Part shown: one piece after another, positions 37,718 through 54,295 of the stretch
How positions within the stretch are numbered: the stretch's first letter is position 1
Layout: the number at the start of each line of letters is the position of its first letter
Assembly (NCBI GenBank): GCA_964630825.1
Contig: CAZVZR010000002.1
Span: forward strand, 19,648-83,647
Direction: 5' to 3'
DNA from: an uncultured Planctomycetales bacterium
GTDB taxonomy: Bacteria > Omnitrophota > Gorgyraeia > Zapsychrales > Zapsychraceae
DNA length: 64,000 nucleotides
The notes under the pieces: model-generated
Databases searched by the model: none
The model's input: only the letters and a program-made list of their open reading frames with translations
Told to the model about the DNA's origin: nothing
Position numbers and translations under genes: made by a program

Positions 37718-37850
37718 GAAGGTACCTATAAAAATGGGCATTGACGCTGTGAAAATATAACTTATACTTAACGTAACTTGTTTTAGGGTTAGCAAAGACG
37801 CAGCCTTGAAACAGCCGTTTCAGCGAAGAAACATAAAAAGGACTATGACG

Positions 37851-37879
37851 CCCGAGGAATACCTCGGGTTTTTTATTTT
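37851..37879 (+). terminator. Rho-independent terminator
   Basis: CCCGAGG-aata-CCTCGGG, then TTTTTTATTTT. Confidence 0.8.
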
Positions 37880-37904
37880 GGGGAAGGTTTTATCAGGGAC
37901 ATAG

Positions 37905-37950
37905 AAGCCCCTTGTTCAAAGAAGAACTTTGAATGAGGGGCTTTTTTTAT
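37905..37950 (+). terminator. Rho-independent terminator (extended imperfect hairpin)
   Basis: AAGCCCCttgTTCAAAGaagaaCTTTGAAtgaGGGGCTT, then TTTTTTATT. Confidence 0.65.
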
Positions 37951-38140
37951 TAAAACATTGTAAAAAAGGAGAAAAGGCAATGTATACACAACAAGAGAAG
38001 ATGGTAGGTCCGCTTTCTAGATTAGCCGTAGTTTTTGCTTCTAGCATTTCGATTTTGTCGATAGGTTTATTCATCGCCAGCTTGTACCGGCTTATTTAGT
38101 TTCAAGTTCAGAATGTAAAGTTTTTTAGGAGAGGTTACAC

Positions 38141-40639
38141 GTGAAAAAACCAACAATCGTTGTGATCGGTAACGGCATGGCCGGTGCCAGAGTCGCGGAA
38201 GAGATTTTAAAGCGCGATTCCCAGCAATTTAAAATTGTAATGTTCGGCGCCGAACCATACGGGAACTATAATCGTATTTTATTGAGTAATGTCTTGAACC
38301 AAACGCAACAACCCCAAGAGATTTTTATTAATCCGCTTACTTGGTATCAAGAGAACAATATCCAACTACATGCCGGAGTCAAAGCCGTTAAGATCGATCG
38401 TGAAAACAAAAAAGTGATAGGAATTAAACTCTCGGGACAAGATGTCCCTTATGCTGCTGAAATCAAAGAGAACAAAGAAACTGAATTTATTGAAGAACCT
38501 TATGATTATGTGATAATTGCGACCGGATCCCGCCCTTTTATCCCGCCTATGGAAGGACACGACAAAGAGGGTGTCTTCCAATTCCGCACCATAAATGATT
38601 GTTACCTGATCGCTGAATACGCCAAAAAGTGTCAGAAAGCGGTCGTTATCGGCGGTGGCCTATTAGGCTTAGAAGCAGCGCGTGGACTTATAACCCACGA
38701 TGTTCAAGTTTCAGTCGTTGAAGCAGCCCTCCAACTCATGCCGGCTCAATTGGACACTGAGGCGGCACAAATTTTAAAGCGAACGATGGAAGCGATGGGT
38801 GTGCGCGTCTTAACCGGCGCGTTGACAGCAAAGATTACAGAGAAGGATGGAAAAGCCGCCGGACTTCTTTTTAAAGACGGGAATATTTTGGAAACGGATA
38901 TGGTGGTTATCAGTGCCGGGATCCGTCCGATTACCGAAATTGCCAAGGTAAGCGGAATTGAAGTTAACAAAGGGATTGTTTGTAACGATCAGATGCGGAC
39001 CAGCGATGATAATATTTTTGCAGTAGGCGAATGTGTTGAGCATCGCGGGAAGATTTATGGGTTGGTGGATCCGATTTGGGAACAGGCCAAAGTCTTAGCC
39101 GATGTCATTACCGGAACAAATCCTGATGCAGCTTATCAAGGGTCTAAGACGGGGACGAAACTTAAAGTCATGGGTGTGGAATTAGCCTCCATGGGAGAAA
39201 AAGAAACTAATGATCCCAGCGATGAAGTTTTGGTGTACCGTGACCCTAATCGCGGGATTTATAAAAAACTAATTGTGCGCGGGAATAAAATCCATGGGAA
39301 CATTTTGTTGGGTGATGCCGAAGGCGCGGATAGTTTGTTGCAGCTTTTTTATAGTGAGAAAGATTTGCCGAAAAATCGCGGGGAAGTCTTATTCGGTTCG
39401 GTTGAGGGAACAACGCTAGTTAACGCTGCCGACTTGCCGGATACCGCCCAAATATGCAATTGTAACGGGGTATGCAAAAAAGAAATCATCGATGCTATTG
39501 AGGCAGGTTGTAAGAGTGTTGCGGGAGTTGGCGCCAAAACAAAGGCGGGCAAAGGGTGCGGCTCATGCCGGGGAATGATTGCGCAGATTATTGAAGCTAC
39601 CGCCGGCGAGGTTTCTTATGATGCCAGTGAACATTATTATGTCCCGGGGATTCGTTTAGAAAAGTCACAATTAGTCCGTGAGATCAGAAACAGAAAAATT
39701 AAATCGGTGAGCGGCGTCTTCGTGCAATTAGCCGATAGCAAAGAAGACGCGGACAGCAAGGTCGGTCTTGCTTCCTTATTAAAAATCTTATGGCCCAAAG
39801 AGTATGAAGATGAACGGGACGCCCGTTTTATTAATGACCGTGTTCACGCTAATATTCAAAAAGACGGGACATTTTCCGTAGTGCCGCGGATTTATGGCGG
39901 AGTGACAACACCTGAACAACTTATGCGCATTGCTCAAGCAGCGGTCAAATATAAAGTAAAAATGGTAAAGATTACCGGCGGACAACGGATTGATCTATTG
40001 GGCTTAAAGAAAGAGGACCTGCCAAAAATTTGGAAAGATTTGGATATTCCCAGCGGCCATGCTTACACCAAAGCTTTCCGTACGTGCAAAAGTTGTGTCG
40101 GGACGGATTTCTGTCGATACGGGTTGGGGGATTCGATTAGTTTGGCGCAGAAAATCGAATACCGATTTCAAGGAATCGAATCGCCGCACAAAATGAAACT
40201 AGCGACGGCCGGATGCGCGCGCAATTGTTCGGAAGCGTATGTGAAAGATTTAGGTGCTGTCGCTATCGGAGAAGAAAAATGGGAAATTTATGTCGGCGGC
40301 GCGGCCGGCGGTACCGTACGTAAAGGCGATATCCTTTGTGTCGTAGACAGCCACGATGAGGTTTTAAGATACATGGGCCGATTTATCCAGTATTACCGCG
40401 AGCATGGAAAATATTTGGAAAGGACGTATGGATTTGTCGAACGCATTGGGATTGATATTTTAAAAGGTATTTTAGTCAAAGACTCTTTGGGCATCTGTGC
40501 TCAGCTTGAAGAAAGAATTCAGGAAGCCGTCGAGGCTTATAAGGATCCGTGGAAAGAGGCCGAGGCCCCGGCCTATGATCATCAGTTTGAAGGGCCACGC
40601 ATCGTTGAAGTAATTCATGAGGTTAATAACAATGGTTGA
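38141..40639 (+). CDS. nirB: Assimilatory NAD(P)H-nitrite reductase large subunit
   Basis: GTG start 6 nt after AGGAGAGG. FAD/NAD Rossmann IVVIGNGMAG. BFD-like 2Fe-2S region CNCNGVCKKEI...GKGCGSCRG. Siroheme/4Fe-4S domain TCKSCVGTDFC...TAGCARNCSEA. Confidence 0.9.
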   Translation: MKKPTIVVIGNGMAGARVAEEILKRDSQQFKIVMFGAEPYGNYNRILLSNVLNQTQQPQEIFINPLTWYQENNIQLHAGVKAVKIDRENKKVIGIKLSGQDVPYAAEIKENKETEFIEEPYDYVIIATGSRPFIPPMEGHDKEGVFQFRTINDCYLIAEYAKKCQKAVVIGGGLLGLEAARGLITHDVQVSVVEAALQLMPAQLDTEAAQILKRTMEAMGVRVLTGALTAKITEKDGKAAGLLFKDGNILETDMVVISAGIRPITEIAKVSGIEVNKGIVCNDQMRTSDDNIFAVGECVEHRGKIYGLVDPIWEQAKVLADVITGTNPDAAYQGSKTGTKLKVMGVELASMGEKETNDPSDEVLVYRDPNRGIYKKLIVRGNKIHGNILLGDAEGADSLLQLFYSEKDLPKNRGEVLFGSVEGTTLVNAADLPDTAQICNCNGVCKKEIIDAIEAGCKSVAGVGAKTKAGKGCGSCRGMIAQIIEATAGEVSYDASEHYYVPGIRLEKSQLVREIRNRKIKSVSGVFVQLADSKEDADSKVGLASLLKILWPKEYEDERDARFINDRVHANIQKDGTFSVVPRIYGGVTTPEQLMRIAQAAVKYKVKMVKITGGQRIDLLGLKKEDLPKIWKDLDIPSGHAYTKAFRTCKSCVGTDFCRYGLGDSISLAQKIEYRFQGIESPHKMKLATAGCARNCSEAYVKDLGAVAIGEEKWEIYVGGAAGGTVRKGDILCVVDSHDEVLRYMGRFIQYYREHGKYLERTYGFVERIGIDILKGILVKDSLGICAQLEERIQEAVEAYKDPWKEAEAPAYDHQFEGPRIVEVIHEVNNNG

Positions 40640-40769
40640 ACTGTATCGTATCTTAGACTTTATCATGGACTCTTTTAAAATAGAGAAAATCTATTTTAGA
40701 GTTTTCATTTACCCGCGTACGGGTGTCAAAGTCATTTTAAATTAAGAATATTTTTGAGGGAGGAATCTT

Positions 40770-41123
40770 ATGGAAACACTCTTAATTGTTAATTTGGGAC
40801 ACATCAATGATATTCCGGTAGGACAGGGAGTCTGTTTCATTATTAAAGGAGAAGAGGTTGCTGTGTTCCGTGACCGGGACGGAAAGATTTTTGCGGTTGA
40901 AAACCAATGTCCGCATCGTCGTGGACCATTGGCGGAAGGCGTGATTGGCGGCGGCAAGGTCGTATGCCCCTTGCATGGGCACAAGTTTGACCTGGCAACA
41001 GGACAGGGCCATGAGCCGCGGGAATGTGTACGGGTTTTTAAAACCTGGGTCGACAATGAGCAGATCTTTTTGCAATATAGTAAATCAAGTCAATACGCTG
41101 AAGATAAAATGGCCATTTCTTAA
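40770..41123 (+). CDS. nirD: Nitrite reductase small subunit (Rieske-like)
   Basis: CPHRRGPL...CPLHGHKFDLATG Rieske-type motif pair. 117 aa. Confidence 0.85.
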   Translation: METLLIVNLGHINDIPVGQGVCFIIKGEEVAVFRDRDGKIFAVENQCPHRRGPLAEGVIGGGKVVCPLHGHKFDLATGQGHEPRECVRVFKTWVDNEQIFLQYSKSSQYAEDKMAIS

Positions 41124-41150
41124 AATAAAATAGTAACAAAAGGAGCAGTC

Positions 41151-42515
41151 ATGAATTCGTTAATGAAAAGATTTGTTAAAGAAGCTCAAAGAATGCGGTT
41201 CCTAGGATTGTTATTTGTACTTTTTGTGGGAATTTCTTTCTCTTCCGCCAAAGAGGTTGCCGCCGGAATGTTGGAAAAAGACGAATTGACCCTTGGTTTT
41301 ATTAAACTCACAGACTGTGTCGCACTTGTGGTAGCGAAAGAAAAGGGATTTTTTGAGGACGAAGGGTTATTTGTGAAACTCGAACCTCAGGCAAATTGGA
41401 AAGTACTGATGGATAGAGTTATCGATGGGCAACTTGACGGATCGCATATGTTGGCTCCGGCGCCGCTGGGACATACCGACGGAATTCTGACAAAATCTCA
41501 TATCATTGTTCCTTATGTAATGTCGGTTAATGGCGCGGGAATATCTGTTTCAAATGAAGTTTGGGCAAAAATGAAGCCGAATATTCCTTTGCAAGAAGAT
41601 GGAAAACCAGTCCATCCGATCAGTGCCGCCGCGATGAAACCAGTTGTTGAAGAATTTAAAAATGAGGGGAAACCTTTTAAAATGTCGATGACCTATCCGG
41701 TGGGTGTACATAATTATGTTCTGCGTTACTGGCTGGCCGCCGGCGGTCTTAACCCAGGTTATTACACCGCAACGGATACGACCGGCTTAACGGATGCGGA
41801 TGTGCAGCTTTCGGTCACACCGCCTCCACAGATGCCCTCGGTATTGGAAGCCGGGACAAGTAATGGCATTTGTGTCAATGACCCTTGGCATAAACAGGTC
41901 ATTGAAAAAGGTGTTGGCGTTCCCGTGACATCGAGTTATTTCGTTAATAACGGTATTTCCGATAAAGTTTTTGGTGTGACTAAGCAGTGGGCCGACGCCA
42001 ATCCCAATACGCTCAAAGCGGTCGTTAAGGCGTTGATTCGCGCCGGTAAATGGCTTGACGAGGATGTTAAAAACCGCGATGAGGCTGCCAAAATCTTATC
42101 AAGGCCAGAGTATGTGGGGGCAAATTATGAAGTTATCCGTCCTATGCTTGTTGGGAAGTTTGAATATGAAAAGGGGGATGTCCGCTCCGAACCCGATTGG
42201 GATGTTTTCTTTAGAAATAATGCCTCTTATCCTTATTACAGCGATGCTATTTGGTGGTTGACACAGGTGCGCCGGTGGGGGCAGGTCGAAAAGAAACCGG
42301 ATGAATGGTATTTTGACCTGGTAAAAAAAGTTTATCAGCCCGATATCTGGCTTAGCGCCGCCAAAGAGTTAGTTAAAGAAGGGAAATTAACAGAGGCCGA
42401 AATTCCCCAGACGGATGGATTTAAGGAACCTTCCGGTAATTTTATTGATGGGATTGTTTTTGACGGCCATACACCTAATGCGTATTTAGAAAAATTTCCG
42501 ATTGGGATGAAATAA
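41151..42515 (+). CDS. nrtA: Nitrate/nitrite ABC transporter substrate-binding protein (NrtA/CmpA family)
   Basis: Signal peptide. LGFIKLTDCVALVVAKEKGFFEDEGL core typical of NrtA. Confidence 0.8.
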   Translation: MNSLMKRFVKEAQRMRFLGLLFVLFVGISFSSAKEVAAGMLEKDELTLGFIKLTDCVALVVAKEKGFFEDEGLFVKLEPQANWKVLMDRVIDGQLDGSHMLAPAPLGHTDGILTKSHIIVPYVMSVNGAGISVSNEVWAKMKPNIPLQEDGKPVHPISAAAMKPVVEEFKNEGKPFKMSMTYPVGVHNYVLRYWLAAGGLNPGYYTATDTTGLTDADVQLSVTPPPQMPSVLEAGTSNGICVNDPWHKQVIEKGVGVPVTSSYFVNNGISDKVFGVTKQWADANPNTLKAVVKALIRAGKWLDEDVKNRDEAAKILSRPEYVGANYEVIRPMLVGKFEYEKGDVRSEPDWDVFFRNNASYPYYSDAIWWLTQVRRWGQVEKKPDEWYFDLVKKVYQPDIWLSAAKELVKEGKLTEAEIPQTDGFKEPSGNFIDGIVFDGHTPNAYLEKFPIGMK

Positions 42516-42535
42516 CTTTTTAAAAAGGAAAGTAT

Positions 42536-43510
42536 ATGAAAAATAAGATTTTTAACAAAAAAGGACAAGCAACATTGTCATTGGCTGTTCAATTACCATT
42601 GCAGAAATTTTGGGATTCTTTTGGGCTTCCTGCCTTGGCCTTTATCGTCTTCTTGGGGTTATGGTCACTGGCCTCTTCAAAGATTGAAACTAATTTGGGA
42701 GCATTGCCCGGGCCTAAAGAAGCCTTAGTCCAATTTAAGGAATTATGGAACGAGCATTGGAGCGAAAAGGCTAAAGCGCGGGAATTTTATCAAAAACAAA
42801 AAGAGGATAATGTTTTAAAACTTGCTCAAGATCCGCAAGCTAAAGTGAAAATCCGTAAATATACTGGCAAAGTAACATTTTTAAACCAAATTCTCACCAG
42901 TTTGTACACTGTATTTACCGGTTTTACCTTGGCATCCTTGGTGGCTATTCCGATAGGTATTATTTGCGGATTAAATCGTTCGATGATGTCAGCCTTAAAT
43001 CCATTCATTCAACTTTTTAAGCCAGTTTCCCCTTTAGCTTGGTTGCCTTTAGTCACCATTATGGTAAGTGCCGTCTATACCACCCAACAAGGCGGATTGG
43101 AAAAATGTTTTATTATATCTGCGATTACTGTTTCCTTGTGTTCGATGTGGCCAACCATGATCAATACGGCCCAAGGGGTTTCTTCCGTGGATAAAGACCT
43201 TATCAATGTTTCGCGGGTGCTGCAGCTGGGCTGGTTTACGCATGTTTTTAAAATTATTTTGCCTTCTTCCTTGCCGTTTATTTTTACCGGTTTACGCATT
43301 TCTTTAGGCGTAGGCTGGATGGTTTTGATTGCTTCCGAAATGCTCGCGCAAAATCCAGGATTAGGCAAATTCGTTTGGGATGAATTTCAAAATGGCAGCA
43401 GCCAATCCTTGGCGCGCATTATGGTCGCGATTTTGACGATCGGCTTTATCGGGTTCATTCTCGATCGGATTATGGTCGCCTTGCAGAAAGCGATGAGCGT
43501 GTACCGTTAA
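42536..43510 (+). CDS. nrtB: Nitrate ABC transporter permease
   Basis: Six TM helices. The EAA-like loop region precedes the ALQKAMS C-terminus. Sits between nrtA and the ATPase genes. Confidence 0.8.
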   Translation: MKNKIFNKKGQATLSLAVQLPLQKFWDSFGLPALAFIVFLGLWSLASSKIETNLGALPGPKEALVQFKELWNEHWSEKAKAREFYQKQKEDNVLKLAQDPQAKVKIRKYTGKVTFLNQILTSLYTVFTGFTLASLVAIPIGIICGLNRSMMSALNPFIQLFKPVSPLAWLPLVTIMVSAVYTTQQGGLEKCFIISAITVSLCSMWPTMINTAQGVSSVDKDLINVSRVLQLGWFTHVFKIILPSSLPFIFTGLRISLGVGWMVLIASEMLAQNPGLGKFVWDEFQNGSSQSLARIMVAILTIGFIGFILDRIMVALQKAMSVYR

Positions 43511-43529
43511 ATTTTTTAAGGACAATAAT

Positions 43530-44372
43530 ATGAATTTTTTAGAATTAAAAAATGTTAACAAAAGTTATGGTGCAGGAAAAAATCGTCTGAGCGTTCTTAA
43601 GGATATTAACTTAAGTATTGCACAAGGTGAATTTGTGGCCCTCATGGGATTTTCGGGAACGGGGAAGACAACCATCATCTCGCTTATCAGCGGTTTGTTA
43701 AGTCCGGATGAAGGGGAGGTTTTATTCCAGGGAAAACCGATCAAAGGCCCCGGCGCTGAGCGCGGGGTGGTATTTCAGAACTATTCTCTTTTACCTTGGC
43801 TTAATGTTTATCAGAACGTGGCGCTGGCCGTCGATAATATTTTTCCCGATTGGCCGTTGGAAAAACGCAAAAAGCACATCGAAAAATATATTGCGATGGT
43901 GAATTTAACTCCAGCGATGTCCAAGCGTCCAGGAGAACTTTCCGGGGGCATGCGGCAAAGAGTGGCTGTCGCCCGGGCTTTGGCCATGAACCCGGAAATT
44001 CTTTTATTAGATGAGCCATTAAGCGCTTTGGATGCCCTGACCCGGGGGACGCTGCAGCAAGAGATAGAAAAGATTTGGTTACGTGATCGAAAAACCGTGG
44101 TTCTTATTACCAATGATGTGGACGAAGGCATTTTATTGGCGGATAGAATCATTCCTCTGAAACCAGGAACAGGGACTACTTTAGGCCCTGCTTTTAAAAT
44201 TCCGTTTGAGCGCCCGCGCCGCCGCCATAGTTTCAATAATGACCCGCTATTCCGTCGAGTCCGTAATGATATTGTCAGTTACTTTATGGACCTTCGCGCC
44301 GAAACCAGAAATCATTCGGTTACGAACTCTTTACGTTTACCTACCCTAAGGCCTATGTACAAGGAAGATTAA
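43530..44372 (+). CDS. nrtC: Nitrate/sulfonate/bicarbonate-family ABC transporter ATP-binding protein
   Basis: Walker A GFSGTGKTT. Signature LSGGMRQRVAVARAL. Walker B LLLDEP. Short form without an NrtA-like C-terminal domain. Confidence 0.8.
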   Translation: MNFLELKNVNKSYGAGKNRLSVLKDINLSIAQGEFVALMGFSGTGKTTIISLISGLLSPDEGEVLFQGKPIKGPGAERGVVFQNYSLLPWLNVYQNVALAVDNIFPDWPLEKRKKHIEKYIAMVNLTPAMSKRPGELSGGMRQRVAVARALAMNPEILLLDEPLSALDALTRGTLQQEIEKIWLRDRKTVVLITNDVDEGILLADRIIPLKPGTGTTLGPAFKIPFERPRRRHSFNNDPLFRRVRNDIVSYFMDLRAETRNHSVTNSLRLPTLRPMYKED

Positions 44373-44373
44373 T

Positions 44374-45261
44374 ATGTTTCTAAAGACAGACGCGAGTTTT
44401 GTACAACCTTATTTATATTTTGATCATTTGACAAAAATATATCCGACCAAAGAGGGCCCTTATGTCGTTTTAGAGGAATTTAAATTAGGTATCAATAAGG
44501 GCGAATTTGTGTGCATCATCGGCCATTCCGGTTGCGGTAAGTCAACCGCCTTAATGATGTTAGCCGGTTTGGTAACGTGCACTGCCGGTGGGATTTTTTT
44601 AGATAAGCGTCTTATCAATGACGAGCCGGGCCCGGACCGCGGGGTTGTATTTCAGTCACCCAGCCTTTTTCCGTGGATGACGGCAATGGAAAATGTCATG
44701 TTGGGCGCGCGGCAGGTTTATCCGCATGCTAATCCCAAAGTATGTGCGGATATTTGTAAATATTATTTACACCGGGTTGGCTTAGGCGACTCGCTTCATA
44801 AAAAAGCTTCGGAATTATCGAATGGTATGAAGCAGAGAGTGGGTATTGCCCGGGCCTTTGCGTTGAAACCAAAACTTTTACTTCTTGATGAACCTTTTGG
44901 AATGCTGGACTCCCTGACCCGGGCAGAGTTGCAGGAAGTTTTGATGGAAGTTTGGCATACAGAAAAAATTACCGCTGTCATGGTAACCCATGATGTGGAT
45001 GAGGCAGTTTTTTTGTCCGACCGTGTGGTCATGATGACCAGCGGCCCCAAGGCCAGAGTTGGCGACATTCTCACCGTTGAGTTTTCCCGCCCGCGGCATC
45101 GCAAAGAAGTGATGGAACATCCTCATTATTACCCTTACCGAGGATACTTAGTTGATTTTTTGGAAGGGAGAGACCCTAAAGAAAATTTTTCTTTAGGGAT
45201 AAGACCGCCATGTCTTTTACATCAGGATGTGGTAAAGCCGGTTGTTGCCCTACAGAGATAA
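44374..45261 (+). CDS. nrtD: Second ABC transporter ATP-binding protein of the nitrate transporter
   Basis: Walker A GHSGCGKST. Signature LSNGMKQRVGIARAF. Walker B LLLDEP. Confidence 0.8.
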   Translation: MFLKTDASFVQPYLYFDHLTKIYPTKEGPYVVLEEFKLGINKGEFVCIIGHSGCGKSTALMMLAGLVTCTAGGIFLDKRLINDEPGPDRGVVFQSPSLFPWMTAMENVMLGARQVYPHANPKVCADICKYYLHRVGLGDSLHKKASELSNGMKQRVGIARAFALKPKLLLLDEPFGMLDSLTRAELQEVLMEVWHTEKITAVMVTHDVDEAVFLSDRVVMMTSGPKARVGDILTVEFSRPRHRKEVMEHPHYYPYRGYLVDFLEGRDPKENFSLGIRPPCLLHQDVVKPVVALQR

Positions 45262-45305
45262 GTTAATTTTTATCCCCAACTTTAATAAACAATGGGAGGA
45301 TCATT

Positions 45306-46640
45306 GTGAATCCATATAGAATAATTTTAGCGGCGGCACTTTTAACTTTGGTTGGCGTGCCGGTTGTTTATGCCGGGCCCCTTATCAACAAACATTTACC
45401 ACCGATGTTAAAGTCAGATATCGAACTGCGTCAGCGGATAGAATACCGCAATAATTTTGATTTTAATGACGCTCGCGATGATGAGGATGCTTTTTATTTA
45501 AAAAGGCTGCGGGTCAGCCTTAATTTTATTCCGGTCAAAGAATGGAATCTTTTCATTCAGGGACAGGATTCCCGTATTTTTGATTCTGAATACGTCAATA
45601 AGGCAACCTTTGAGAATCAAATGGATGTCCGTCAACTCTATATCAATTATGAGGATGCGGTGGCTTTTGAAACATTGCAAATCAATAAGGTTTCAGCACG
45701 GTTTGGCCGTCAGGAATTTTCTTACGGCGCACAACGCCTGCTCGGTGCTTTTAATTGGTCTAATCTCGCCCAGACCTTCGATGGTGTAAAGGCCGGGGTC
45801 CATTTTGTGCCTTTGCATGTTGGGCTGGAATTTTTCTGGGGGAACAAATCACCAATAAAAACGCCGCGGGAATTTGACGATTTGTTCGATGAAACCTCTC
45901 AAGAACAGATTTGGGGTTATTATGCCACGGCCAAGCCGTTCGGCGATACGATAGTGGAACATTATTTGATCAGCCGCAATACGGACAAAGTGGTGTCTTT
46001 CGGGCCCAGCGGCTCAGGTGACATTGAAGATTACACCGTGGGCGGCCGGATAAAGAATGCTTTTCCCAATGGGATCGATTATGAGTTAGAGGTGGCCAAA
46101 CAGTGGGGCGATTTTAAGAATTTGGAGGTCGACGGCATGATGACCATTGCCTTGATCGGTTATACGTTTAAAGCAATGGCCTGGAAACCGCGTATTGGTT
46201 TTGAATTTGATTACGGTTCGGGGGATAGTGACCGCAGCGACGGTAAAATGAGCACGTTTGATAATTTATATCCGACTAACCATCTTTTTTATGGATATGC
46301 CGATCTTATTAGTTTGCAAAACTTAAATGACTACATTCTCCAGTTTAATATGAAACCGAATAAGAAACTCAAAATTCAAACAGATTTCCATATGATGTAT
46401 TTGGATACCGTTAAGGATTCTTATTATTCGGTGGCCCGGGCAGTTGTCCGAACGGCGACATCAAGTAATGTCGATGATCATTTCGGGAACGAAATCGATT
46501 TTACAACGGATTATAAATTTAATGATAATTTGAGCTTTTTGTTGGGGTATTCCTATTTTATTCCCGGTCAGTACTTAAAAGATACTGGCGCTCATGATGA
46601 TACCCATTTTGCCTATTTCCAAACAACAGTATCTTTTTAA
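45306..46640 (+). CDS. Outer-membrane beta-barrel porin (alginate-export/OprO-like family)
   Basis: Signal peptide. Alternating amphipathic strands. C-terminal aromatic ...FQTTVSF. GTG start behind GGGAGGA. Confidence 0.7.
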   Translation: MNPYRIILAAALLTLVGVPVVYAGPLINKHLPPMLKSDIELRQRIEYRNNFDFNDARDDEDAFYLKRLRVSLNFIPVKEWNLFIQGQDSRIFDSEYVNKATFENQMDVRQLYINYEDAVAFETLQINKVSARFGRQEFSYGAQRLLGAFNWSNLAQTFDGVKAGVHFVPLHVGLEFFWGNKSPIKTPREFDDLFDETSQEQIWGYYATAKPFGDTIVEHYLISRNTDKVVSFGPSGSGDIEDYTVGGRIKNAFPNGIDYELEVAKQWGDFKNLEVDGMMTIALIGYTFKAMAWKPRIGFEFDYGSGDSDRSDGKMSTFDNLYPTNHLFYGYADLISLQNLNDYILQFNMKPNKKLKIQTDFHMMYLDTVKDSYYSVARAVVRTATSSNVDDHFGNEIDFTTDYKFNDNLSFLLGYSYFIPGQYLKDTGAHDDTHFAYFQTTVSF

Positions 46641-46643
46641 TTT

Positions 46644-48266
46644 ATGATCAAGGAATTAATCAATACCGATGTTGATAAAAAGACTTTTGCTTCAGCCGTC
46701 GAGCGCTTTGCTTCTTTGCATCAGACGCATCAAGTCAACAGCAAAGAAAAAAATTACCGCGAGCTTATTCCGCAGAAAGTTCCCGGCGTAGGGCAACAGT
46801 ATGCTTTTGAAGTGGATTTGGATAAATGCACGGGATGTAAGGCCTGTGTCACGGCCTGTCATAATGAAAATGGGCTTGATGAAGATGAAACTTGGCGTTC
46901 GGTCGGCCTTATCCAGGGAGGCACCAGTGCCAAGCCGGCGATTCAGCATATTACCACCGCGTGCCATCACTGCGCCGAACCGGCGTGCATGAAGGGCTGT
47001 CCCACGTTAGCCTATACGAAGGACGAAGCGACCGGCATTGTTCAACATTTAGAAGATCAATGTTTTGGCTGCCAATACTGTATTTTGAAATGTCCTTACG
47101 ATGTCCCCAAATATAATAAGAAAAGGGGGATTGTTCATAAATGTGATATGTGCATCGGCCGTTTAAGTGCCGGGCAAGCTCCCGCTTGTGCCCGCGCCTG
47201 TCCCAATGGTGCCATCCGTATTACGCTGGTTGATAAAAAAGACGTTAAAGCTCATCCCGAAGAGTATGTGAAGGTTCCCGACGCGCCGGCTTCCGATTAC
47301 ACTTATCCGACGACAAAGTACATAACCAATCGTGTTTTCCCCAGCAATATGGAATCGGTGGATTATTATACGATTAAACCGGAACATTCACATTTGCCTT
47401 TAGTCTACATGCTGGTTTTGACCCAATTATCCGTAGGGGCTTTTTTCGCGGAATCCATATTGCGGCAGATTATCAATCCGTATTACAGCCATGCTTTTTA
47501 TTTATTTCAAATCCCTTTCGCGTTAGTAATTGGTGTCCTGGCCTTGGCCTCGAGCATTCTGCATTTGGGACGTCCGCATTTGGCTTTTCGGGCCATATTG
47601 GGTTTTAAAACATCATGGTTAAGCCGGGAAATTATCGCTTTGGGGATGTTTTCAATCTCAATGATCTTATACGCCTTGGTTCATTGGGTAAAATTTTTAA
47701 GCCCTTTAGCTGATGGATTGGCTTTATCCGTTTTCTTTTTCGGCGGGATGGGTATTACGTGTTCGATCATGGTCTATCGCGATACCAAGCGCCCTTTTTG
47801 GGATAACCATTTAACGACCATAAAATTTATATTAACAACGGTTATCCTGGGATCGGCGACAACTTTATTAAGTGCGGCTGTTTTGCGGTTTATTAGCCCG
47901 GAAATTTCCTTACTGAATATAGGAAAGATCTTTTGTGAAATGATTTGTTTAAACACCATTGCCAAGCTGATTATAGAATCCACGATCTTTCTGCATTTAT
48001 TAGAGCGCAACGGATTATCTTTTTTTAAAAAGACGGCGATTTTGTTAAGCGGGCCATTGAAAATACCAACGCGATGGCGTTTTGCCTGCGGTATAGTTGG
48101 GGGGATACTGCTTCCTTTTATATTTCTGCAAATGAGTATTGAAGCGGGGCGGGTTTTTGTCATTTTATCATTGTTGATTTTTGCCATCTCCCTGGCGGGA
48201 GAGTTGCTGGAACGGTATCTTTTTTTTAAAGCGGTGGTTCCATTGAAAATGCCGGGAGGGAATTGA
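46644..48266 (+). CDS. Fusion protein: a 4x[4Fe-4S] ferredoxin-type subunit (DmsB/PsrB/HybA-like) joined to a ~8-TM quinol-interacting membrane anchor (NrfD/DmsC-like)
   Basis: Four Cys clusters: [37 protein letters not shown] and [21 protein letters not shown]. From residue ~230 on, 8 hydrophobic helices. Confidence 0.8.
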
Positions 48267-48291
48267 TCTGAAAAATAAATTTCAAAACTTT

Positions 48292-50475
48292 ATGTATCAA
48301 CGGACTGGTAAGCTGACGGAAGAATTAGAATTGGCTCAATCACCATTGGCCGGCGGACAATTACCCAAGCGTTTGTTACCCGATGAAATAAAACATTTGA
48401 TTTGCGGCTATTGTTCCGTCGGCTGCAGCCTGGATGTTCACATGAAAAATAAAGAAGCGATTAATTTAATCCCCACGGAAGATTATCCCGTGAATATGGG
48501 CGAAGCCTGCCCCAAAGGCTGGGAGGCCTTAACGCCTTTAAAAGCGCCTGACCGGGCGACGCAGCCTTTATTGCGCAATGAGATGGGGAAGTTAGAAAAA
48601 GTTGATTGGCCAACGGCGATGGAGGCCTTCGTCAATAATTTTAATCGGATTATGCAAAAATACGGCAAAGAGAGCGTGGCATTTTTAAGCACTGGACAAA
48701 TTCCTATGGAAGAAATGGCGCTATTGGGTGTGGTGGCCAAATTGGGCATGGGCATAATCCATGGGGATAGCAATACACGCCAATGCATGGCGACGTCGGC
48801 GGTGGCTTATAAACAATCCTTTGGCTTCGACGCGCCGCCTTATAGTTATAAAGATTTGGAAGAGTCAGATGTTCTTATCTTTGTAGGCGCTAATCCCTGC
48901 ATCGCTCATCCTATTTTGTGGCAACGGGTGTTGATGAATAAAAACCGTCCGGAAATTATTGTCGTTGATCCTCGCAAAACAGAAACAGCCATGGCGGCAA
49001 CGCGGCATTATGCCTTGACGCCCAAATCGGATTTAACTTTATTTTATGGCCTGGCGCACACTTTAATTGAGAACGGCTGGATTGATAAAGAATATATTCA
49101 TCGTTACACCTCTGGATTTGGGGAATTTGAAAATCATGTTCAAGCGTTTACCCCTGATTTAGTTAGCCAGAAAACGGGCTTGAGCGTCCGTGAGGTTTAT
49201 GAATTTGCCAATATTATTCGTAAAGGCAAGAAGGTGTCGTTTTGGTGGACGATGGGGGTCAATCAAAGTTATGAAGGCGTCCGTACGGCGCAGGCCTTGA
49301 TTAACTTAAGTTTGATGACGGGGAATATGGGGAGACCAGGTACCGGGGCCAATTCTATTACCGGGCAATGTAATGCCATGGGGTCAAGATTATTTAGCAA
49401 TACCACGAATTTATTAGGCGGCCATGATTTCACCAATCCCGAACATCGAGAAAAGATCGCGACACTCCTTAACATAACCGAAGACCGGATCCCGGATAAA
49501 AACAGCCTTGCCTATGATCAAATCCTCGATGGAATTATGCAGAACAAGATAAAAGGTTTATGGATTATTGCTACCAATCCGGCGCATTCATGGATTAATC
49601 AGAATGAATTCCATGATTATATTAAAAACCTGGAATTCTTGGTGGTTCAGGATATGTACCATACGACGGAAACAGCCCGGCTGGCGCATTTAGTCTTACC
49701 GGCCGCTGGCTGGGGGGAAAAGGAAGGGACGTTTATTAATTCGGAAAGGCGGATCGGTTTAATTACAAAAGTTGCGCAGGCACCGGGAGAGGCGTTAGCG
49801 GACTTTGACATTTTTAAATTGATTGCCAAATATTGGGGCTGCGAACGGCTTTTTGAAAAGTGGGATTCTCCCGAGGCTGTATTTCAGATTCTAAAAGAAA
49901 TCTCTAAGGAGCAACCGTGCGATATTACCGGGATTAAGGATTATCAAATGATTTATGAAAATGGCGGCATTCAGTGGCCGTTTAAAGAGGGCGATACGTT
50001 AAAAGACAACGAACGGCGGCTTTTTGAAGACGGTCAATATTATCATGCGGATAAGAAGGCTAAATTTATTTTTGAGGCCAGCCGGGATAAACCCGAGCCG
50101 ATAAGCGAAAAGTATCCTTTTGAACTTTTGACCGGCCGCGGCACATCATCCCAGTGGCATACACAAACCAGAACCGGCAAATCCAAGATTCTGCAGAAAA
50201 TGTATCCACCAGATGTTTATGCGGAAATTAATCCTGAGGATGCCGAAAGATTAAATATCCAACAAGGCCAAGATGTTTTTATTTCAACACGCCGGGCCAG
50301 AGTTAAAGCGCGGGCTTTTATTACGCCCATTGTCAAACCCCAGCAGATTTTTATGCCGATGCATTATGAGGCAACCAATAAATTAACGTTTCCGGCATTT
50401 GACCCTTATTCAAGGCAGCCATCGTACAAGACTTGTGCCGCAATGATTTTATTAAACGAGAAGCAAGAGGTATAA
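48292..50475 (+). CDS. nasA: Molybdopterin (bis-MGD) oxidoreductase catalytic subunit, assimilatory nitrate reductase NasA/NarB-like (a formate-dehydrogenase-H-like enzyme is not excluded). No Tat signal.
   Basis: N-terminal 4Fe-4S motif [10 protein letters not shown]...CPKGW. 727 aa. Context with nirBD and nrtABCD. No twin-arginine motif. Confidence 0.7.
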
Positions 50476-50477
50476 TC

Positions 50478-51023
50478 ATGCTCGATTCTTTAGGAATTCA
50501 ACCCGTCGTGGTGTCCATTAATATTTCCAGAGGAGGAATCCCCAAGTTACCTGTTGAGCGTATTTTCGTCAGCGTTCAAGGATTAGAAGGCGATGGGCAT
50601 AATCACGATAAGCATAAAAGGTTAACTCAGGCCGTCTGTCTACAAGATCTAGAAAAGCTTCATGAATTAAGGAAAGAAGGTTATCCTTTAGCCTCGGGAG
50701 AAACCGGAGAGAATCTTACGGTGAGCAATTTACATGTTAACGCGTTGCCGCTAAGATCCATATTAGAATTTTCGGGTGGTGTTATTTTGGAATTAACTAA
50801 AATCCGGCAACCCTGTTACGTTCTTGATAGCATACATCCGCAACTAAAACAAGATATCGCAGGCCGTTGCGGAATTTATGCCAAAGTTTTAAAGGAAGGT
50901 TTTTTAAAAAAAGGTGAAAGCATCAAGATCATTGAGCCTGTCTTGTGGGGCGCGACGATTAACTATTTTCCCTCCCTTATAATTAGAAATCCTGCTTTAC
51001 AGCCCGAAGGAAATTTGGTATAA
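50478..51023 (+). CDS. MOSC-domain protein (YiiM-like)
   Basis: beta-barrel MOSC core GENLTVSNL...ELTKIRQPCYVLDSIHPQL with the conserved Cys. Start set at the ATG just after the nasA stop, TATAAT-like AT-rich leader. Confidence 0.7.
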   Translation: MLDSLGIQPVVVSINISRGGIPKLPVERIFVSVQGLEGDGHNHDKHKRLTQAVCLQDLEKLHELRKEGYPLASGETGENLTVSNLHVNALPLRSILEFSGGVILELTKIRQPCYVLDSIHPQLKQDIAGRCGIYAKVLKEGFLKKGESIKIIEPVLWGATINYFPSLIIRNPALQPEGNLV

Positions 51024-51169
51024 ATGAACCCGCCACTTATGGAGCTTTGATTTTTTTAGATTTTTTTTCCTGCCGCATCAGTTTTAAATGCCTCACGGAC
51101 TTCTCTAAAAGAATTTTATGGAAGTCAGTGCGGCATGTTTCTTTCTAAATAAATTTTGTAGTAAAACAT

Positions 51170-51243
51170 GCCGAGATAGCTCAGCTAGGTAGAGCAGTGG
51201 ACTGAAAATCCATGTGTCCCCAGTTCGATCCTGGGTCTCGGCA
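51170..51243 (+). tRNA. tRNA-Phe (GAA). No encoded CCA.
   Basis: Cloverleaf by hand: acceptor GCCGAGA/TCTCGGC, D-arm GCTC..GAGC, anticodon loop CTGAAAA, T-arm CCCAG-TTCGATC-CTGGG. Followed by TTTTTT. Confidence 0.9.
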
Positions 51244-51280
51244 TTTTTTCATAATTTTTTATTATAGAGAAAAAAGGCCG

Positions 51281-51556
51281 ATGCTGATTACTACCCCAAG
51301 CATGTTTAATAAAATAGATACAGAAACGATTAAAATGAAGCTGGATCAGGCCTGCGGTATGTACCTGGCAGAGCAGGAAAAACTACGAGGATTTGCCCAG
51401 GTTATATTTAACTTGAATCATTCGATGACTTACAGAGCTTTTGATAATGTGCTCAAAAGGCTCATTGAATCCAACGATCCAAGCAGACCCCAGAAGTTAA
51501 TTGCCGAGATTGAAAAATTCGTACAAATGGCAAAAAGGTTAGACAAGAATCTTTAA
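51281..51556 (+). CDS. Hypothetical small protein (91 aa)
   Basis: MLITTPSMFNKID... The ORF begins after the tRNA. The track's longer form overlaps the tRNA and was trimmed. Confidence 0.4.
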   Translation: MLITTPSMFNKIDTETIKMKLDQACGMYLAEQEKLRGFAQVIFNLNHSMTYRAFDNVLKRLIESNDPSRPQKLIAEIEKFVQMAKRLDKNL

Positions 51557-51563
51557 AAAATGC

Positions 51564-54222: not shown

Positions 54223-54295
54223 GCTGGCGTAGCTCAGTTGGTAGAGCAGCTGATTCGTAATCAGCAGGTCACCAGTTCAACTCTGGTCGCCAGCT
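54223..54295 (+). tRNA. tRNA-Thr (CGT)
   Basis: Acceptor GCTGGCG/CGCCAGC, D-arm GCTC-AGTTGGTA-GAGC, anticodon arm GCTGA-TTCGTAA-TCAGC, T-arm ACCAG-TTCAACT-CTGGT. Confidence 0.85.

What the first reader, a model, noticed from the sequence alone, without database searches (positions are those of the whole stretch)
46644..51023. Nitrate reductase-like molybdoenzyme paired with a fused 4x[4Fe-4S] membrane-anchor subunit and a MOSC protein
A cytoplasmic NasA/NarB-like bis-MGD catalytic subunit ([11 protein letters not shown]-terminus, no twin-arginine signal) sits next to a single polypeptide that fuses a DmsB/PsrB-type four-cluster ferredoxin to an 8-TM NrfD/DmsC-like anchor. Characterised assimilatory nitrate reductases take electrons from ferredoxin or flavodoxin (NarB) or from NAD(P)H via NasC/NasB. 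A quinol-linked membrane anchor is instead the hallmark of respiratory Psr/Dms/Nrf-type complexes, and in those the catalytic subunit is periplasmic. The arrangement suggests a cytoplasm-facing, quinol-coupled nitrate reductase. Alternatively it could be a different molybdoenzyme, such as an FdhF-like enzyme, recruited into the nir/nrt cluster. A MOSC-domain protein directly downstream is also atypical here.
Basis: partly seen in the sequence, partly recalled or inferred. Interest (0 to 1): 0.7.

Follow-up and report, generated by a model that had tools for sequence, protein, structure and literature searches.

The report
Membrane-anchored, quinol-fed assimilatory nitrate reductase
This nitrate-assimilation operon pairs a Nas-type nitrate reductase with one protein that fuses a four-cluster iron-sulfur wire to an inverted DmsC-type quinol anchor, a pairing found in more than 500 species but not described in the papers I could search, which implies these bacteria reduce nitrate for growth with electrons from the membrane quinone pool.

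Summary
Window 46644-48266 encodes one 540-aa protein with 16 Cys in four [4Fe-4S] motifs, fused to an 8-helix DmsC-family anchor. Window 48292-50475 encodes a 727-aa bis-MGD enzyme, and 50478-51023 a MOSC protein. They close a tight nirB-nirD-nrtABCD-porin operon.

The Mo enzyme is a nitrate reductase, not a formate dehydrogenase. It has Cys165-Met166 and TGQxNAMGSR, and it groups with NasA/NapA.

Neither subunit has a Tat signal. In 59 homologues, K+R averages 16 on the FeS-side loops and 3 on the opposite loops, the reverse of E. coli DmsC. The FeS domain therefore faces the cytoplasm. All four DmsC quinol-site residues are invariant.

The gene pair is nearly universal. It was found in 71 of 71 genome loci and 51 of 52 metagenome loci with enough flanking DNA. 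The one metagenome exception carries a transposase. It spans Planctomycetota, Myxococcota, Verrucomicrobiota, Acidobacteriota, Poribacteria and Omnitrophota, next to nirBD, nirA, narK, amt or nasST genes.

Best reading (about 0.7): a cytoplasm-facing menaquinol:nitrate oxidoreductase for assimilation. This would be a third electron-supply mode besides ferredoxin and NAD(P)H. Nine literature searches found no description, and one review states the opposite. MOSC linkage is restricted to this lineage. Nothing is shown biochemically.

The parts
46644..47393 (+). N-terminal half of the fused protein (residues 1-250): a cytoplasmic four-cluster [4Fe-4S] ferredoxin domain of DmsB/FdnH/PsrB type, preceded by a ~50-aa family-specific leader (AVERF...Y..LIP)
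   Evidence: Pfam Fer4_11 and related families. NCBIfam DmsB model 133.8 bits. PDB FdnH E 1.8e-26. 16 Cys in four motifs, all invariant in 59 homologues. Foldseek matches PsrB with TMt 0.73. No signal peptide: maximum 12-aa hydropathy 0.72.
47394..48266 (+). C-terminal half of the fused protein (residues 251-540): an 8-helix DmsC-family quinol anchor, predicted N-in/C-in, which is inverted relative to E. coli DmsC. The quinol site is S304/H307/S324/E329.
   Evidence: Pfam DmsC E 3.4e-16. Helices. K+R 16 vs 4 in the window protein, and mean 16.0 vs 2.9 in 59 homologues. E. coli DmsC shows the reverse, 4 vs 8. H307 and E329 align to DmsC H65 and E87. S304/H307/S324/E329 are invariant. Foldseek matches ActC and PsrC.
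48292..50475 (+). Catalytic subunit: a cytoplasmic Nas-type Mo-bisMGD nitrate reductase (727 aa). FS0 Cys 38/41/45/73, Lys75, Mo ligand Cys165 followed by Met166. It has a family-specific conserved ~35-aa N-terminal extension.
   Evidence: Pfam. NCBIfam NasA/NasC/Fdh-alpha models all match but below cut-off. Active-site columns. NJ tree. N-termini. Homologues are auto-named 'nitrate reductase'.
50478..51023 (+). MOSC-domain protein (181 aa), a lineage-specific third gene. Role unknown: a Moco-related helper or an N-hydroxylamine-type detoxifier.
   Evidence: Pfam MOSC. Nearest solved relative is YiiM, E 8e-10. The same gene lies directly after the Mo gene in L001 and L093-L099 only. The 181-aa gene call is on record.
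38141..41123 (+). nirB (38141-40639) and nirD (40770-41123): NAD(P)H sirohaem nitrite reductase, the next step of the pathway in the same operon
   Evidence: NCBIfam nirB 835 bits, above its cut-off. nirD scores 70.2 bits, just below its cut-off. Pfam.
41151..45261 (+). NrtABCD-type ABC nitrate importer: substrate-binding protein 41151-42515, permease 42536-43510, ATPases 43530-44372 and 44374-45261
   Evidence: Pfam NMT1_2, BPD_transp_1, ABC_tran.
45306..46640 (+). Alginate_exp-family outer-membrane porin, 3 nt upstream of the fused gene. Probably an outer-membrane anion channel for nitrate or nitrite.
   Evidence: Pfam Alginate_exp E 8e-65. Homologous porins lie near the pair in at least 10 other loci.
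37741..38140 (+). Operon leader. It holds a promoter-like site (37741-37768), two terminator-like hairpins (37850-37869, and 37903-37945 with 19 pairs plus a T-run), and a 39-aa hydrophobic small ORF (37980-38099).
   Evidence: A regulatory role is inferred, not tested.

Best explanation

**Proposed path.**
1. [quoted passage not shown]
2. Electrons pass along the four [4Fe-4S] clusters of the fused N-terminal domain.
3. They reach the FS0 cluster (C38/41/45/73) of the Nas-type subunit, then the Mo-bisMGD centre (Cys165), and finally nitrate.
4. Nitrite then goes to NirBD, or to NirA in other lineages.

The quinol site and the active site are on the same (N) side, so the enzyme by itself should not form a redox loop. 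Routing reductant through the quinone pool lets upstream dehydrogenases conserve energy, and it removes the need for a ferredoxin or an NAD(P)H-flavoprotein partner.

**Shown by sequence:** domain content, cluster ligands, nitrate-reductase-type active site, absence of export signals, charge bias of the loops, conserved quinol-site residues, obligatory gene pairing, and the assimilatory neighbourhood.

**Inferred:** physical complex formation, quinol as donor, quinone type, direction and energetics.
For: **Architecture.**

**Nitrate-reductase identity.** The Cys-Met and TGQxNAMGSR motifs are shared with NasA and NapA and differ from FdhF. The family is a tight clade within Nas/Nap, with FdhF outside.

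**Cytoplasmic orientation.**
- No RR motif or signal in true N-termini of either subunit.
- K+R averages 16.0 on FeS-side loops against 2.9 on opposite loops in 59 of 59 homologues, with a minimum difference of 8.
- E. coli DmsC, whose DmsAB face the P-side (PMC8076601), shows the opposite bias.

**Quinol site.** Window S304/H307/S324/E329 correspond to DmsC S62/H65/S82/E87, the residues listed as the DmsC quinol site in PMC8076601. All four are invariant.

**Functional coupling.**
- In genome contigs, 71 of 71 loci with downstream DNA have the Mo gene immediately after the fused gene.
- Sampling independently from the Mo side in metagenomes, 51 of 52 loci have the fused gene directly upstream. 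A further 22 truncated loci show its 3' end.
- The single exception among those 52 (L134) has a transposase at the junction. So does L089, from a separate look-up of the window's closest Mo homologue.

**Assimilatory context in 71 loci**: NirB(D) 40, MFS NarK-like 39, NirA-like 16, NarX-like (PilJ-domain) kinase 9, ANTAR NasT-like 3, NasS-like 3. Amt, P-II and GS lie nearby in L089/L090.

**Operon structure.** In the window, the ATP-driven NrtABCD importer and the pair share one operon, with gaps of 3, 25 and 2 nt.
Against: - There is no biochemical, genetic or expression evidence for any member.
- Complex formation is inferred from synteny only. I could not run a multimer prediction.
- NirBD and a quinol-fed cytoplasmic nitrate reductase could also serve dissimilatory nitrate ammonification or redox balancing.
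- The Mo subunit fails the curated equivalog cut-offs for NasA (447 vs 1000 bits) and NasC (429 vs 1100). Substrate assignment therefore rests on motifs and context.
- My tree used few references: no cyanobacterial NarB and no B. subtilis NasC. Bootstrap values for the deep nodes were lost on rooting.
- Charge bias could partly reflect contacts with the FeS domain rather than topology alone.
- The quinone type is not determined.
Confidence: 0.72

Rival explanations
1. The same membrane complex exists, but its main role is dissimilatory. It would act as a cytoplasmic quinol:nitrate oxidoreductase that re-oxidises the quinol pool, either as a Nar-like electron sink or as the first step of NirBD-dependent nitrate ammonification, rather than supplying nitrogen for growth.
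For: The architecture is that of respiratory CISM enzymes. NirBD also works in fermentative nitrate ammonification (established knowledge). The NO3-/NO2- couple at +433 mV (PMC10100899) makes quinol oxidation strongly exergonic.
Against: The quinol site and active site are predicted on the same side, so there is no redox loop. The linked genes are an ATP-consuming NrtABCD importer, NirA-type assimilatory nitrite reductases, NasS/NasT-like regulators, and Amt/P-II/GS. There are no narK-narGHJI-like respiratory genes or cytochrome genes in the clusters. Many carriers are aerobic heterotrophs such as Sorangium and planctomycetes (background knowledge).
Confidence: 0.13
2. The Mo subunit is an ordinary soluble NarB/NasC-like enzyme fed by ferredoxin, flavodoxin or NirB/NirD. 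The fused FeS-anchor protein is an unrelated neighbour, or serves another enzyme such as nitrite reductase.
For: The 727-aa size and lack of a C-terminal [2Fe-2S] extension resemble ferredoxin-type NarB (background knowledge). In Paracoccus, NasC is fed through the nitrite-reductase system (background knowledge). The sister clade in Cetobacterium uses a soluble 4Fe-4S protein plus a FAD oxidoreductase.
Against: The pair is kept adjacent and co-oriented across at least six phyla, whether the nitrite reductase is NirBD, NirA, or not nearby. The only unpaired Mo genes sit beside a transposase. The Mo subunit carries a family-specific conserved N-terminal extension absent from NasA, the Cetobacterium protein and FdhF. 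This is consistent with a dedicated docking surface.
Confidence: 0.08
3. The catalytic subunit acts on another substrate (formate, chlorate, selenate, or an N- or S-oxide) and was recruited into nitrogen clusters for a side function.
For: The best single NCBIfam score is to the broad Fdh-alpha model (493 bits). No nitrate-reductase equivalog cut-off is reached. The best PDB sequence matches are formate dehydrogenases.
Against: The FDH-defining Sec/Cys-His pair and active-site Arg are replaced by Cys-Met and Thr, exactly as in NasA and NapA. The tree places FdhF outside. The neighbourhood is nitrate and nitrite uptake and reduction in nearly every locus.
Confidence: 0.04

Closest known systems
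Assimilatory nitrate reductases NasA/NasC/NarB (MopB/DMSOR family)
   Same: Cytoplasmic Mo-bisMGD enzyme with an N-terminal [4Fe-4S], a Cys Mo ligand followed by Met, and the TGQxNAMGxR motif. Genetically linked to nitrite reductase and nitrate transporters.
   Different: Known members take electrons from ferredoxin or flavodoxin, or from NAD(P)H via soluble flavoprotein or Rieske partners. A DMSOR-family phylogeny paper states that no member of the Nas/Nap/Aio clade is associated with the canonical four-cluster or membrane-anchor subunits (PMC7331816). Here the obligate neighbour is exactly such a module. Identity to reference NasA is only 33-37%. Curated NasA/NasC cut-offs are not reached. 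There is an extra conserved N-terminal extension.
DmsABC / YnfFGH DMSO-selenate reductases (E. coli)
   Same: A four-cluster DmsB-type protein plus a DmsC-family 8-helix haem-free menaquinol anchor, with the same quinol-site residues (S62/H65/S82/E87).
   Different: DmsAB are Tat-exported and face the periplasm, and DmsB and DmsC are separate proteins. DmsA is a different clade with a different Mo ligand. Here the FeS and anchor parts are fused, there is no Tat signal, the charge bias is inverted, and the catalytic subunit is Nas-type.
SoeABC sulfite:quinone oxidoreductase (Allochromatium vinosum, Aquifex aeolicus)
   Same: SoeABC is the one described CISM proposed to face the cytoplasm with an inverted NrfD-like anchor whose quinone site is on the N-side (PMC8076601). 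No subunit has an export signal.
   Different: SoeABC oxidises sulfite and reduces quinone. It has three separate subunits and a NrfD/PsrC-type rather than a DmsC-type (PF04976) anchor, and a different catalytic clade. I did not compare the sequences directly.
NarGHI respiratory nitrate reductase
   Same: A cytoplasm-facing, quinol-dependent nitrate reductase with a four-cluster electron-transfer subunit.
   Different: NarG has an Asp Mo ligand and belongs to another clade. NarI is a dihaem cytochrome b with a periplasm-side quinol site, which creates a redox loop. Here the anchor is haem-free DmsC-type and the quinol site is predicted on the cytoplasmic side.
Cetobacterium somerae Mo-oxidoreductase + 4Fe-4S dicluster protein + FAD oxidoreductase cluster (uncharacterised sister clade)
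   Same: It is the closest non-family relative of the Mo subunit (47% identity) and has an identical [14 protein letters not shown] motif and Cys-Met.
   Different: Its partner is a soluble 135-aa ferredoxin plus a flavoprotein. It has no membrane anchor and no N-terminal extension.

Membership tests
Assimilatory nitrate reductase catalytic subunit (NasA/NasC/NarB) | N-terminal CX2CX3C...C [4Fe-4S] (FS0) with a following Lys | tested here: met
   C38/C41/C45/C73 and K75. Invariant in 16 homologues.
Assimilatory nitrate reductase catalytic subunit (NasA/NasC/NarB) | Cys Mo ligand in a Cys-Met context, and the TGQxNAMGxR motif (not Sec/Cys-His plus Arg as in FDH) | tested here: met
   RQC165M166ATS and [10 protein letters not shown] align with the NasA and NapA motifs. 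FdhF has C(U)H and RGQNNVQG.
Assimilatory nitrate reductase catalytic subunit (NasA/NasC/NarB) | Cytoplasmic, with no Tat signal | tested here: met
   No RR motif or hydrophobic region in the window protein or in true N-termini of homologues.
Assimilatory nitrate reductase catalytic subunit (NasA/NasC/NarB) | Scores above the curated equivalog cut-off (NCBIfam NF041323 NasA, NF047855 NasC) | tested here: not met
   447 vs 1000 bits and 429 vs 1100 bits. It is a separate clade.
Assimilatory nitrate reductase catalytic subunit (NasA/NasC/NarB) | Electron donor is ferredoxin/flavodoxin, or NAD(P)H via a soluble partner | tested here: not met
   No such partner is encoded in the operon. The conserved partner is the fused FeS-anchor protein.
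Assimilatory nitrate reductase catalytic subunit (NasA/NasC/NarB) | Nitrate-reducing activity required for growth on nitrate | not testable with these tools
   Only the genomic context supports it.
Complex iron-sulfur molybdoenzyme (CISM: catalytic + four-cluster protein + membrane anchor) | Mo-bisPGD catalytic subunit with FS0 | tested here: met
Complex iron-sulfur molybdoenzyme (CISM: catalytic + four-cluster protein + membrane anchor) | Four-cluster protein with 16 Cys in four groups | tested here: met
   The fold matches FdnH, ArrB and PsrB.
Complex iron-sulfur molybdoenzyme (CISM: catalytic + four-cluster protein + membrane anchor) | Quinol-binding membrane anchor of NrfD/DmsC type | tested here: met
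   Pfam DmsC. Eight helices. ActC and PsrC fold matches. Quinol-site residues invariant.
Complex iron-sulfur molybdoenzyme (CISM: catalytic + four-cluster protein + membrane anchor) | The three modules form one physical complex | not testable with these tools
   Inferred from near-universal adjacency. A multimer prediction was not possible.
DmsABC-type DMSO reductase | Tat-exported, periplasm-facing DmsAB, with the DmsC termini periplasmic | tested here: not met
   No Tat signal. The charge bias is inverted relative to E. coli DmsC.
DmsABC-type DMSO reductase | DmsA-clade catalytic subunit | tested here: not met
   23.5% identity to DmsA, which served as the outgroup. The active-site region is not alignable with DmsA motifs.
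Formate dehydrogenase (FdhF/FDH-H type) | Sec/Cys-His at the Mo ligand, and a conserved active-site Arg (RGQNN) | tested here: not met
   Cys-Met, and Thr in place of Arg. FdhF lies outside the clade. No fdh genes are in the neighbourhoods.
NarGHI respiratory nitrate reductase | NarG-type subunit with NarI dihaem cytochrome b anchor | tested here: not met
   The anchor is DmsC-family. The narH model scores only 60 bits against a cut-off of 524.
SoeABC-like cytoplasm-facing CISM | No export signals on any subunit, and an inverted anchor with an N-side quinone site | tested here: met
   This shows a shared working principle only. Homology to SoeA or SoeC was not tested.
MOSC domain proteins | Pfam MOSC above the gathering score | tested here: met
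   46.8 bits against a cut-off of 22.7. The nearest solved relative is YiiM. Cofactor binding and function were not tested.

The most novel reading that the evidence does not exclude
The enzyme may be an energy-conserving assimilatory nitrate reductase. The inverted DmsC/NrfD-like module would release the quinol protons to the periplasm through its second four-helix bundle, whose conserved Glu-Arg pair (E520/R524, corresponding to DmsC E267/R271) is invariant in the family. Nitrate reduction consumes protons in the cytoplasm. Nitrate assimilation would then generate proton-motive force, although the quinol site and the active site lie on the same side. QrcABCD is reported to be electrogenic in this same-side manner (PMC6303296). 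That would make nitrogen assimilation partly self-financing in these phyla.
Probability: 0.2. Interest if true: 0.85.

Novelty: new variant of a known kind. Interest (0 to 1): 0.66.

Why it matters
**A third way to feed nitrate assimilation.** Textbook bacterial nitrate assimilation has two electron supplies: ferredoxin/flavodoxin (NarB, NasA) and NAD(P)H (NasBC, NasCA, or NirB-linked). This module implies a third, the membrane quinone pool.

**It is common.** The fused gene was found in at least 527 species-level genomes. The 80 loci kept came from Planctomycetota, Myxococcota (including cultivable Sorangium), Verrucomicrobiota, Acidobacteriota, Poribacteria and other groups. The window's closest homologues are named Omnitrophota. 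The Mo gene was found on at least 489 metagenome contigs. All of these groups are abundant in soil, freshwater, marine or sponge habitats.

**Consequences if true.**
- Surveys that count these genes simply as nasA or narB would be pooling bioenergetically different enzymes.
- Linking assimilation to the quinol pool changes the energy budget, because reductant can first pass a coupling dehydrogenase.
- It makes nitrate assimilation sensitive to the redox state of the respiratory chain.

**It contradicts a published generalisation.** One DMSOR-family phylogeny paper states that the Nas/Nap/Aio clade never uses the canonical four-cluster and anchor subunits (PMC7331816).

**It adds to anchor biology.** This would be a second, independent example of an inverted NrfD/DmsC-type anchor after SoeABC. 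It could serve as a natural test case for whether these haem-free anchors translocate protons.

Tried and rejected
**Hypotheses rejected**
- **FDH identity.** Rejected on active-site motifs, tree position and gene context.
- **Periplasmic orientation.** Rejected. Apparent 'Tat-like' hits all lay in spurious upstream extensions of GC-rich ORFs, not in true N-termini. The charge bias is strongly N-in.
- **Nitrite oxidation (reverse reaction) to quinone.** Dismissed on thermodynamic grounds: NO3-/NO2- is +433 mV (PMC10100899) against a low-potential menaquinone (background knowledge).

**Things that led nowhere**
- **Organism identification.** The exact-sequence look-up of the fused protein found no contig. 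The cluster look-up gave no names or accessions. The closest named homologues are Candidatus Omnitrophica/Omnitrophota, and some related MAGs are labelled Planctomycetales, so the taxon remains 'probably Omnitrophota/PVC'.
- **Bootstrap support for deep tree nodes.** It was lost after rooting, and the run used most of its time limit, so I did not repeat it.
- **RNA element in the operon leader.** An Rfam gathering-threshold scan of 36000-52000 found only a tRNA.
- **MOSC as a general part of the system.** It is found only in the window's sub-clade.
- **Literature.** Nine of the ten allowed full-text searches were run (one search was a malformed query), and three papers were read in part (PMC7331816, PMC8076601, PMC10100899). 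None describes a Nas-type enzyme with a four-cluster or anchor partner. The library lacks most subscription journals, so a prior description cannot be excluded.

Full report
**1. What is in the sequence**

ORF 46644-48266 (540 aa) combines a DmsB/FdnH-like ferredoxin domain with a DmsC-family membrane domain.
- Pfam gives Fer4_11 at E 4.7e-23, and NCBIfam's DmsB model scores 133.8 bits.
- Pfam PF04976 (DmsC) scores E 3.4e-16 over residues 250-528.
- The N-terminal 250 residues carry 16 cysteines in four classical cluster motifs. All 16 are invariant in 59 homologues.
- Hydropathy and an AlphaFold2 model (pLDDT 86.4, pTM 0.86) give eight long helices.
- Foldseek matches the first half to FdnH, ArrB and PsrB (TM up to 0.73). 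It matches the second half to ActC of alternative complex III and to PsrC.

ORF 48292-50475 (727 aa) has the three Pfam domains of a bis-MGD enzyme.

The MOSC ORF is real. Its start is the ATG at 50478 (181 aa), which is the gene call on record, not the TTG at 50433.

The three genes end a compact co-directional operon. It runs nirB, nirD, nrtA, nrtB, two ABC ATPases, an Alginate_exp porin, the fused gene, the Mo gene, then MOSC, with gaps of 3, 25 and 2 nt between the last four genes. A tRNA-Phe at 51169-51244 bounds it.

**2. The catalytic subunit is a nitrate reductase, not a formate dehydrogenase**

HMM scores alone do not decide. The broad Fdh-alpha model scores 493 bits, NasA 447 and NasC 429, and all three are below their curated cut-offs. 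The best PDB sequence matches are formate dehydrogenases and NapA.

The active-site columns do decide.
- The Mo ligand is Cys165 followed by Met, in RQCMATS. NasA has RLCMSS and NapA has RHCMAS. FdhF has Sec-His.
- The second motif is [10 protein letters not shown]. NasA has TGQPNAMGGR and NapA has TGQPSACGTAR. FdhF has RGQNNVQG, which contains the catalytic Arg.

In a neighbour-joining tree the window protein and 12 homologues from six phyla form one tight clade at 60-71% identity. Its sister is an uncharacterised Cetobacterium Mo-oxidoreductase (47%). Next come Sinorhizobium and Hymenobacter NasA, a Halomonas/Deinococcus 'nitrate reductase' clade, and NapA. FdhF is outside.

Two caveats apply. 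The reference set is small, and bootstrap values for the deep nodes were lost on rooting.

Public pipelines already call these proteins 'nitrate reductase' or 'assimilatory nitrate reductase catalytic subunit'.

**3. Orientation: the iron-sulfur domain and the quinol site face the cytoplasm**

Neither subunit has a twin-arginine motif or a hydrophobic signal region, in the window or in the true N-termini of homologues. An FeS domain that precedes the first transmembrane helix and has no Tat signal is expected to stay in the cytoplasm.

The positive-inside rule agrees.
- Loops 2, 4 and 6 plus the C-terminus are on the same side as the FeS domain. In the window protein they carry 16 Lys+Arg, against 4 on loops 1, 3, 5 and 7.
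- Over 59 homologues the means are 16.0 and 2.9. Every sequence has a difference of at least 8.
- E. coli DmsC, whose partners DmsAB face the periplasm (PMC8076601), shows the opposite bias on the aligned loops, 4 against 8.

The anchor is therefore inverted relative to DmsC.

Its quinol site is conserved. BLAST aligns window residues 303-398 to DmsC residues 61-158. Window S304/H307/S324/E329 fall on DmsC S62/H65/S82/E87, the residues listed as the DmsC quinol site (PMC8076601). All four are invariant in the family.

**4. The two genes are an obligate pair inside nitrate-assimilation clusters**

The 80 loci kept came from Planctomycetota, Myxococcota (including complete Sorangium genomes), Verrucomicrobiota, Vicinamibacterales, Poribacteria, Fibrobacteria and others.

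In all 71 of the 80 retrieved loci that contain enough downstream DNA, an orthologue of the Mo subunit (57-73% identity) follows immediately on the same strand. The other nine contigs end too soon.

I then sampled independently from the Mo side in metagenomes.
- 51 of 52 loci with at least 1.7 kb upstream carry the fused gene directly upstream.
- 22 truncated loci show its 3' end.
- The single exception, L134, has an rve transposase at the junction. So does L089, the closest relative of the window gene.

Clustering the neighbours in the 71 genome loci gave the following counts.

| Neighbour | Loci (of 71) |
|---|---|
| NirB(D) | 40 |
| MFS NarK-like transporter | 39 |
| NirA-type sirohaem nitrite reductase | 16 |
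| Porin | 10 |
| PilJ/NarX-type sensor kinase | 9 |
| CysJ-like flavoprotein | 7 |
| ANTAR (NasT-like) regulator | 3 |
| NasS-like protein | 3 |

Amt, P-II and GS lie nearby in L089/L090. No fdh, nar or cytochrome genes recur.

The Mo subunit also carries a family-specific, conserved extension of about 35 residues before FS0 (consensus G-x-L-T-x-E-L...G-L-G-x-V/L-P...P-D). It is absent from NasA, the Cetobacterium sister and FdhF. It could be a docking element; that is inference.

**5. Most likely mechanism**

I propose a cytoplasm-facing quinol:nitrate oxidoreductase used for assimilation.
- Quinol, probably menaquinol, is oxidised at the DmsC-type site on the N-side. DmsC is a menaquinol oxidase, and the carrier phyla are menaquinone users as far as I know.
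- Electrons run through four [4Fe-4S] clusters to FS0 and the Mo centre.
- Nitrite passes to NirBD.

Both half-reactions occur on the cytoplasmic side, so the enzyme is not expected to form a redox loop. Feeding it from the quinone pool allows upstream dehydrogenases to conserve energy. It also dispenses with a dedicated ferredoxin or flavoprotein.

| Status | Points |
|---|---|
| Shown by sequence | Modules, ligands, motifs, absence of signals, charge bias, pairing, context |
| Inferred | Complex formation, donor, quinone type, energetics |

I put this reading at about 0.72.

The rivals are:
- the same complex in a dissimilatory or redox-sink role (0.13);
- a ferredoxin- or NirB-fed soluble enzyme with an unrelated neighbour (0.08);
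- another substrate (0.04).

**6. Comparison with what is known**

The catalytic subunit works like, and groups with, NasA/NasC/NarB. It fails their curated equivalog cut-offs and lacks their electron donors.

The partner is a DmsB-DmsC fusion in the opposite orientation to DmsABC.

The working principle of a cytoplasm-facing CISM with an inverted haem-free anchor has one proposed precedent, SoeABC. That enzyme runs in the oxidative direction on sulfite (PMC8076601).

NarGHI is cytoplasm-facing and quinol-fed, but it uses a dihaem cytochrome b and an unrelated catalytic clade.

A DMSOR-family phylogeny paper states explicitly that no member of the Nas/Nap/Aio clade is associated with the canonical four-cluster or membrane-anchor subunits (PMC7331816). 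A catalogue of NrfD-like complexes lists no nitrate reductase (PMC8076601; the phrase occurs zero times). A 2023 survey of the superfamily mentions no such partner in the passages I searched (PMC10100899).

Nine full-text searches found no description. The library omits most subscription journals, so an earlier report cannot be excluded.

I therefore rate this a new variant of a known kind. It is widespread and appears not to have been recognised as a distinct class, since database annotation labels the two genes separately as 'nitrate reductase' and 'DmsC/YnfH anchor' or 'formate dehydrogenase iron-sulfur subunit'.

**7. The MOSC gene**

MOSC directly follows the Mo gene only in the window, in L001, and in seven metagenome loci that are its closest relatives at 66-70% identity. 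It is absent from the other lineages.

Its nearest solved relative is YiiM. By name, an NCBIfam model links that family to reduction of N-hydroxylated bases.

It is a lineage-specific accessory. A role in Moco handling, or in detoxifying hydroxylamine-type by-products, is plausible but untested.

**8. Most novel reading not excluded**

The anchor keeps the Glu-Arg pair of the second helix bundle (E520/R524, corresponding to DmsC E267/R271). PMC8076601 lists these among the putative ion-pathway residues. They are invariant here.

QrcABCD is reported to be electrogenic although its two sites lie on the same side (PMC6303296). If quinol protons leave to the periplasm through this module, nitrate assimilation would itself generate proton-motive force. 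I give this about 0.2.

**9. Limits**

- There are no experiments behind any of this.
- No multimer model was possible.
- The organism is not identified.
- The tree uses a small reference set.
- Topology comes from the positive-inside rule rather than from a dedicated predictor.

Noticed in passing
window 37741-38140: The leader of the nirB operon contains a promoter-like site (TTGACG-16-TATACT) and two terminator-like hairpins (37850-37869, and 37903-37945 with 19 pairs plus a T-run). A 39-aa hydrophobic small ORF with a good RBS follows (37980-38099, MYTQQEKMVGPLSRLAVVFASSISILSIGLFIASLYRLI). This may be attenuation or antitermination control, as in nasR/nasT systems, or a small membrane peptide. 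No Rfam family matched.
   Followed up: partly
window 51169-51244 and 51212-51556: A tRNA-Phe(GAA) lies 145 nt after the MOSC stop and marks the operon end. The 114-aa ORF at 51212-51556 overlaps the tRNA, has no Pfam or NCBIfam match, and is probably not a gene. A second tRNA, Thr(CGT), is at 54223-54295.
   Followed up: partly
window 45306-46640; also L013, L015, L022, L026, L031, L035 and others: An Alginate_exp-family outer-membrane porin is encoded inside the nitrate operon, 3 nt before the fused gene. Homologous porins recur near the pair in at least 10 other loci. This suggests a dedicated outer-membrane channel for nitrate or nitrite.
   Followed up: partly
L089 5781-6932 and L134 3523-4449: The only two Mo-subunit genes found without the fused partner each have an rve-family transposase immediately upstream. 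In L089 (81% identical to the window protein) the downstream genes are Amt, P-II and GS type III. These look like IS-disrupted loci.
   Followed up: partly
L082 5980-10697 (Cetobacterium somerae plasmid p1): The sister clade of the Mo subunit (47% identity, identical [14 protein letters not shown] motif) sits with a 135-aa 4Fe-4S dicluster protein, a FAD-dependent oxidoreductase and a TDT-family transporter. It looks like an uncharacterised soluble NAD(P)H-linked nitrate reductase system in Fusobacteria.
   Followed up: no
window 48292-48402 (Mo subunit residues 1-37) and homologues: A conserved ~35-residue N-terminal extension precedes the FS0 cluster in all family members (…G-x-L-T-x-E-L…G-L-G-x-V/L-P…P-D…). 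It is absent from NasA, FdhF and the Cetobacterium sister. It is not a Tat signal and may be a docking tail.
   Followed up: partly
L011 11960-13906 and 14957-17032 (Verrucomicrobiae MAG): Two tandem copies of the Mo-subunit gene (both about 64% identical to the window protein) follow a single fused FeS-anchor gene.
   Followed up: no
window 34487-37717: Upstream of the operon lie a membrane H+-pyrophosphatase (34487-36583), a 134-aa ORF with no family match, and a 192-aa protein with only a C-terminal LuxR/GerE HTH (37139-37717). The last could be the operon's regulator.
   Followed up: no
L031 5730-7517 and six other loci: A CysJ-like flavodoxin/FAD/NAD(P)H reductase recurs near the pair in 7 loci, and NirA-type nitrite reductases in 16 loci. 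This may be an NADPH-driven donor for the ferredoxin-type nitrite reductase in those lineages.
   Followed up: no
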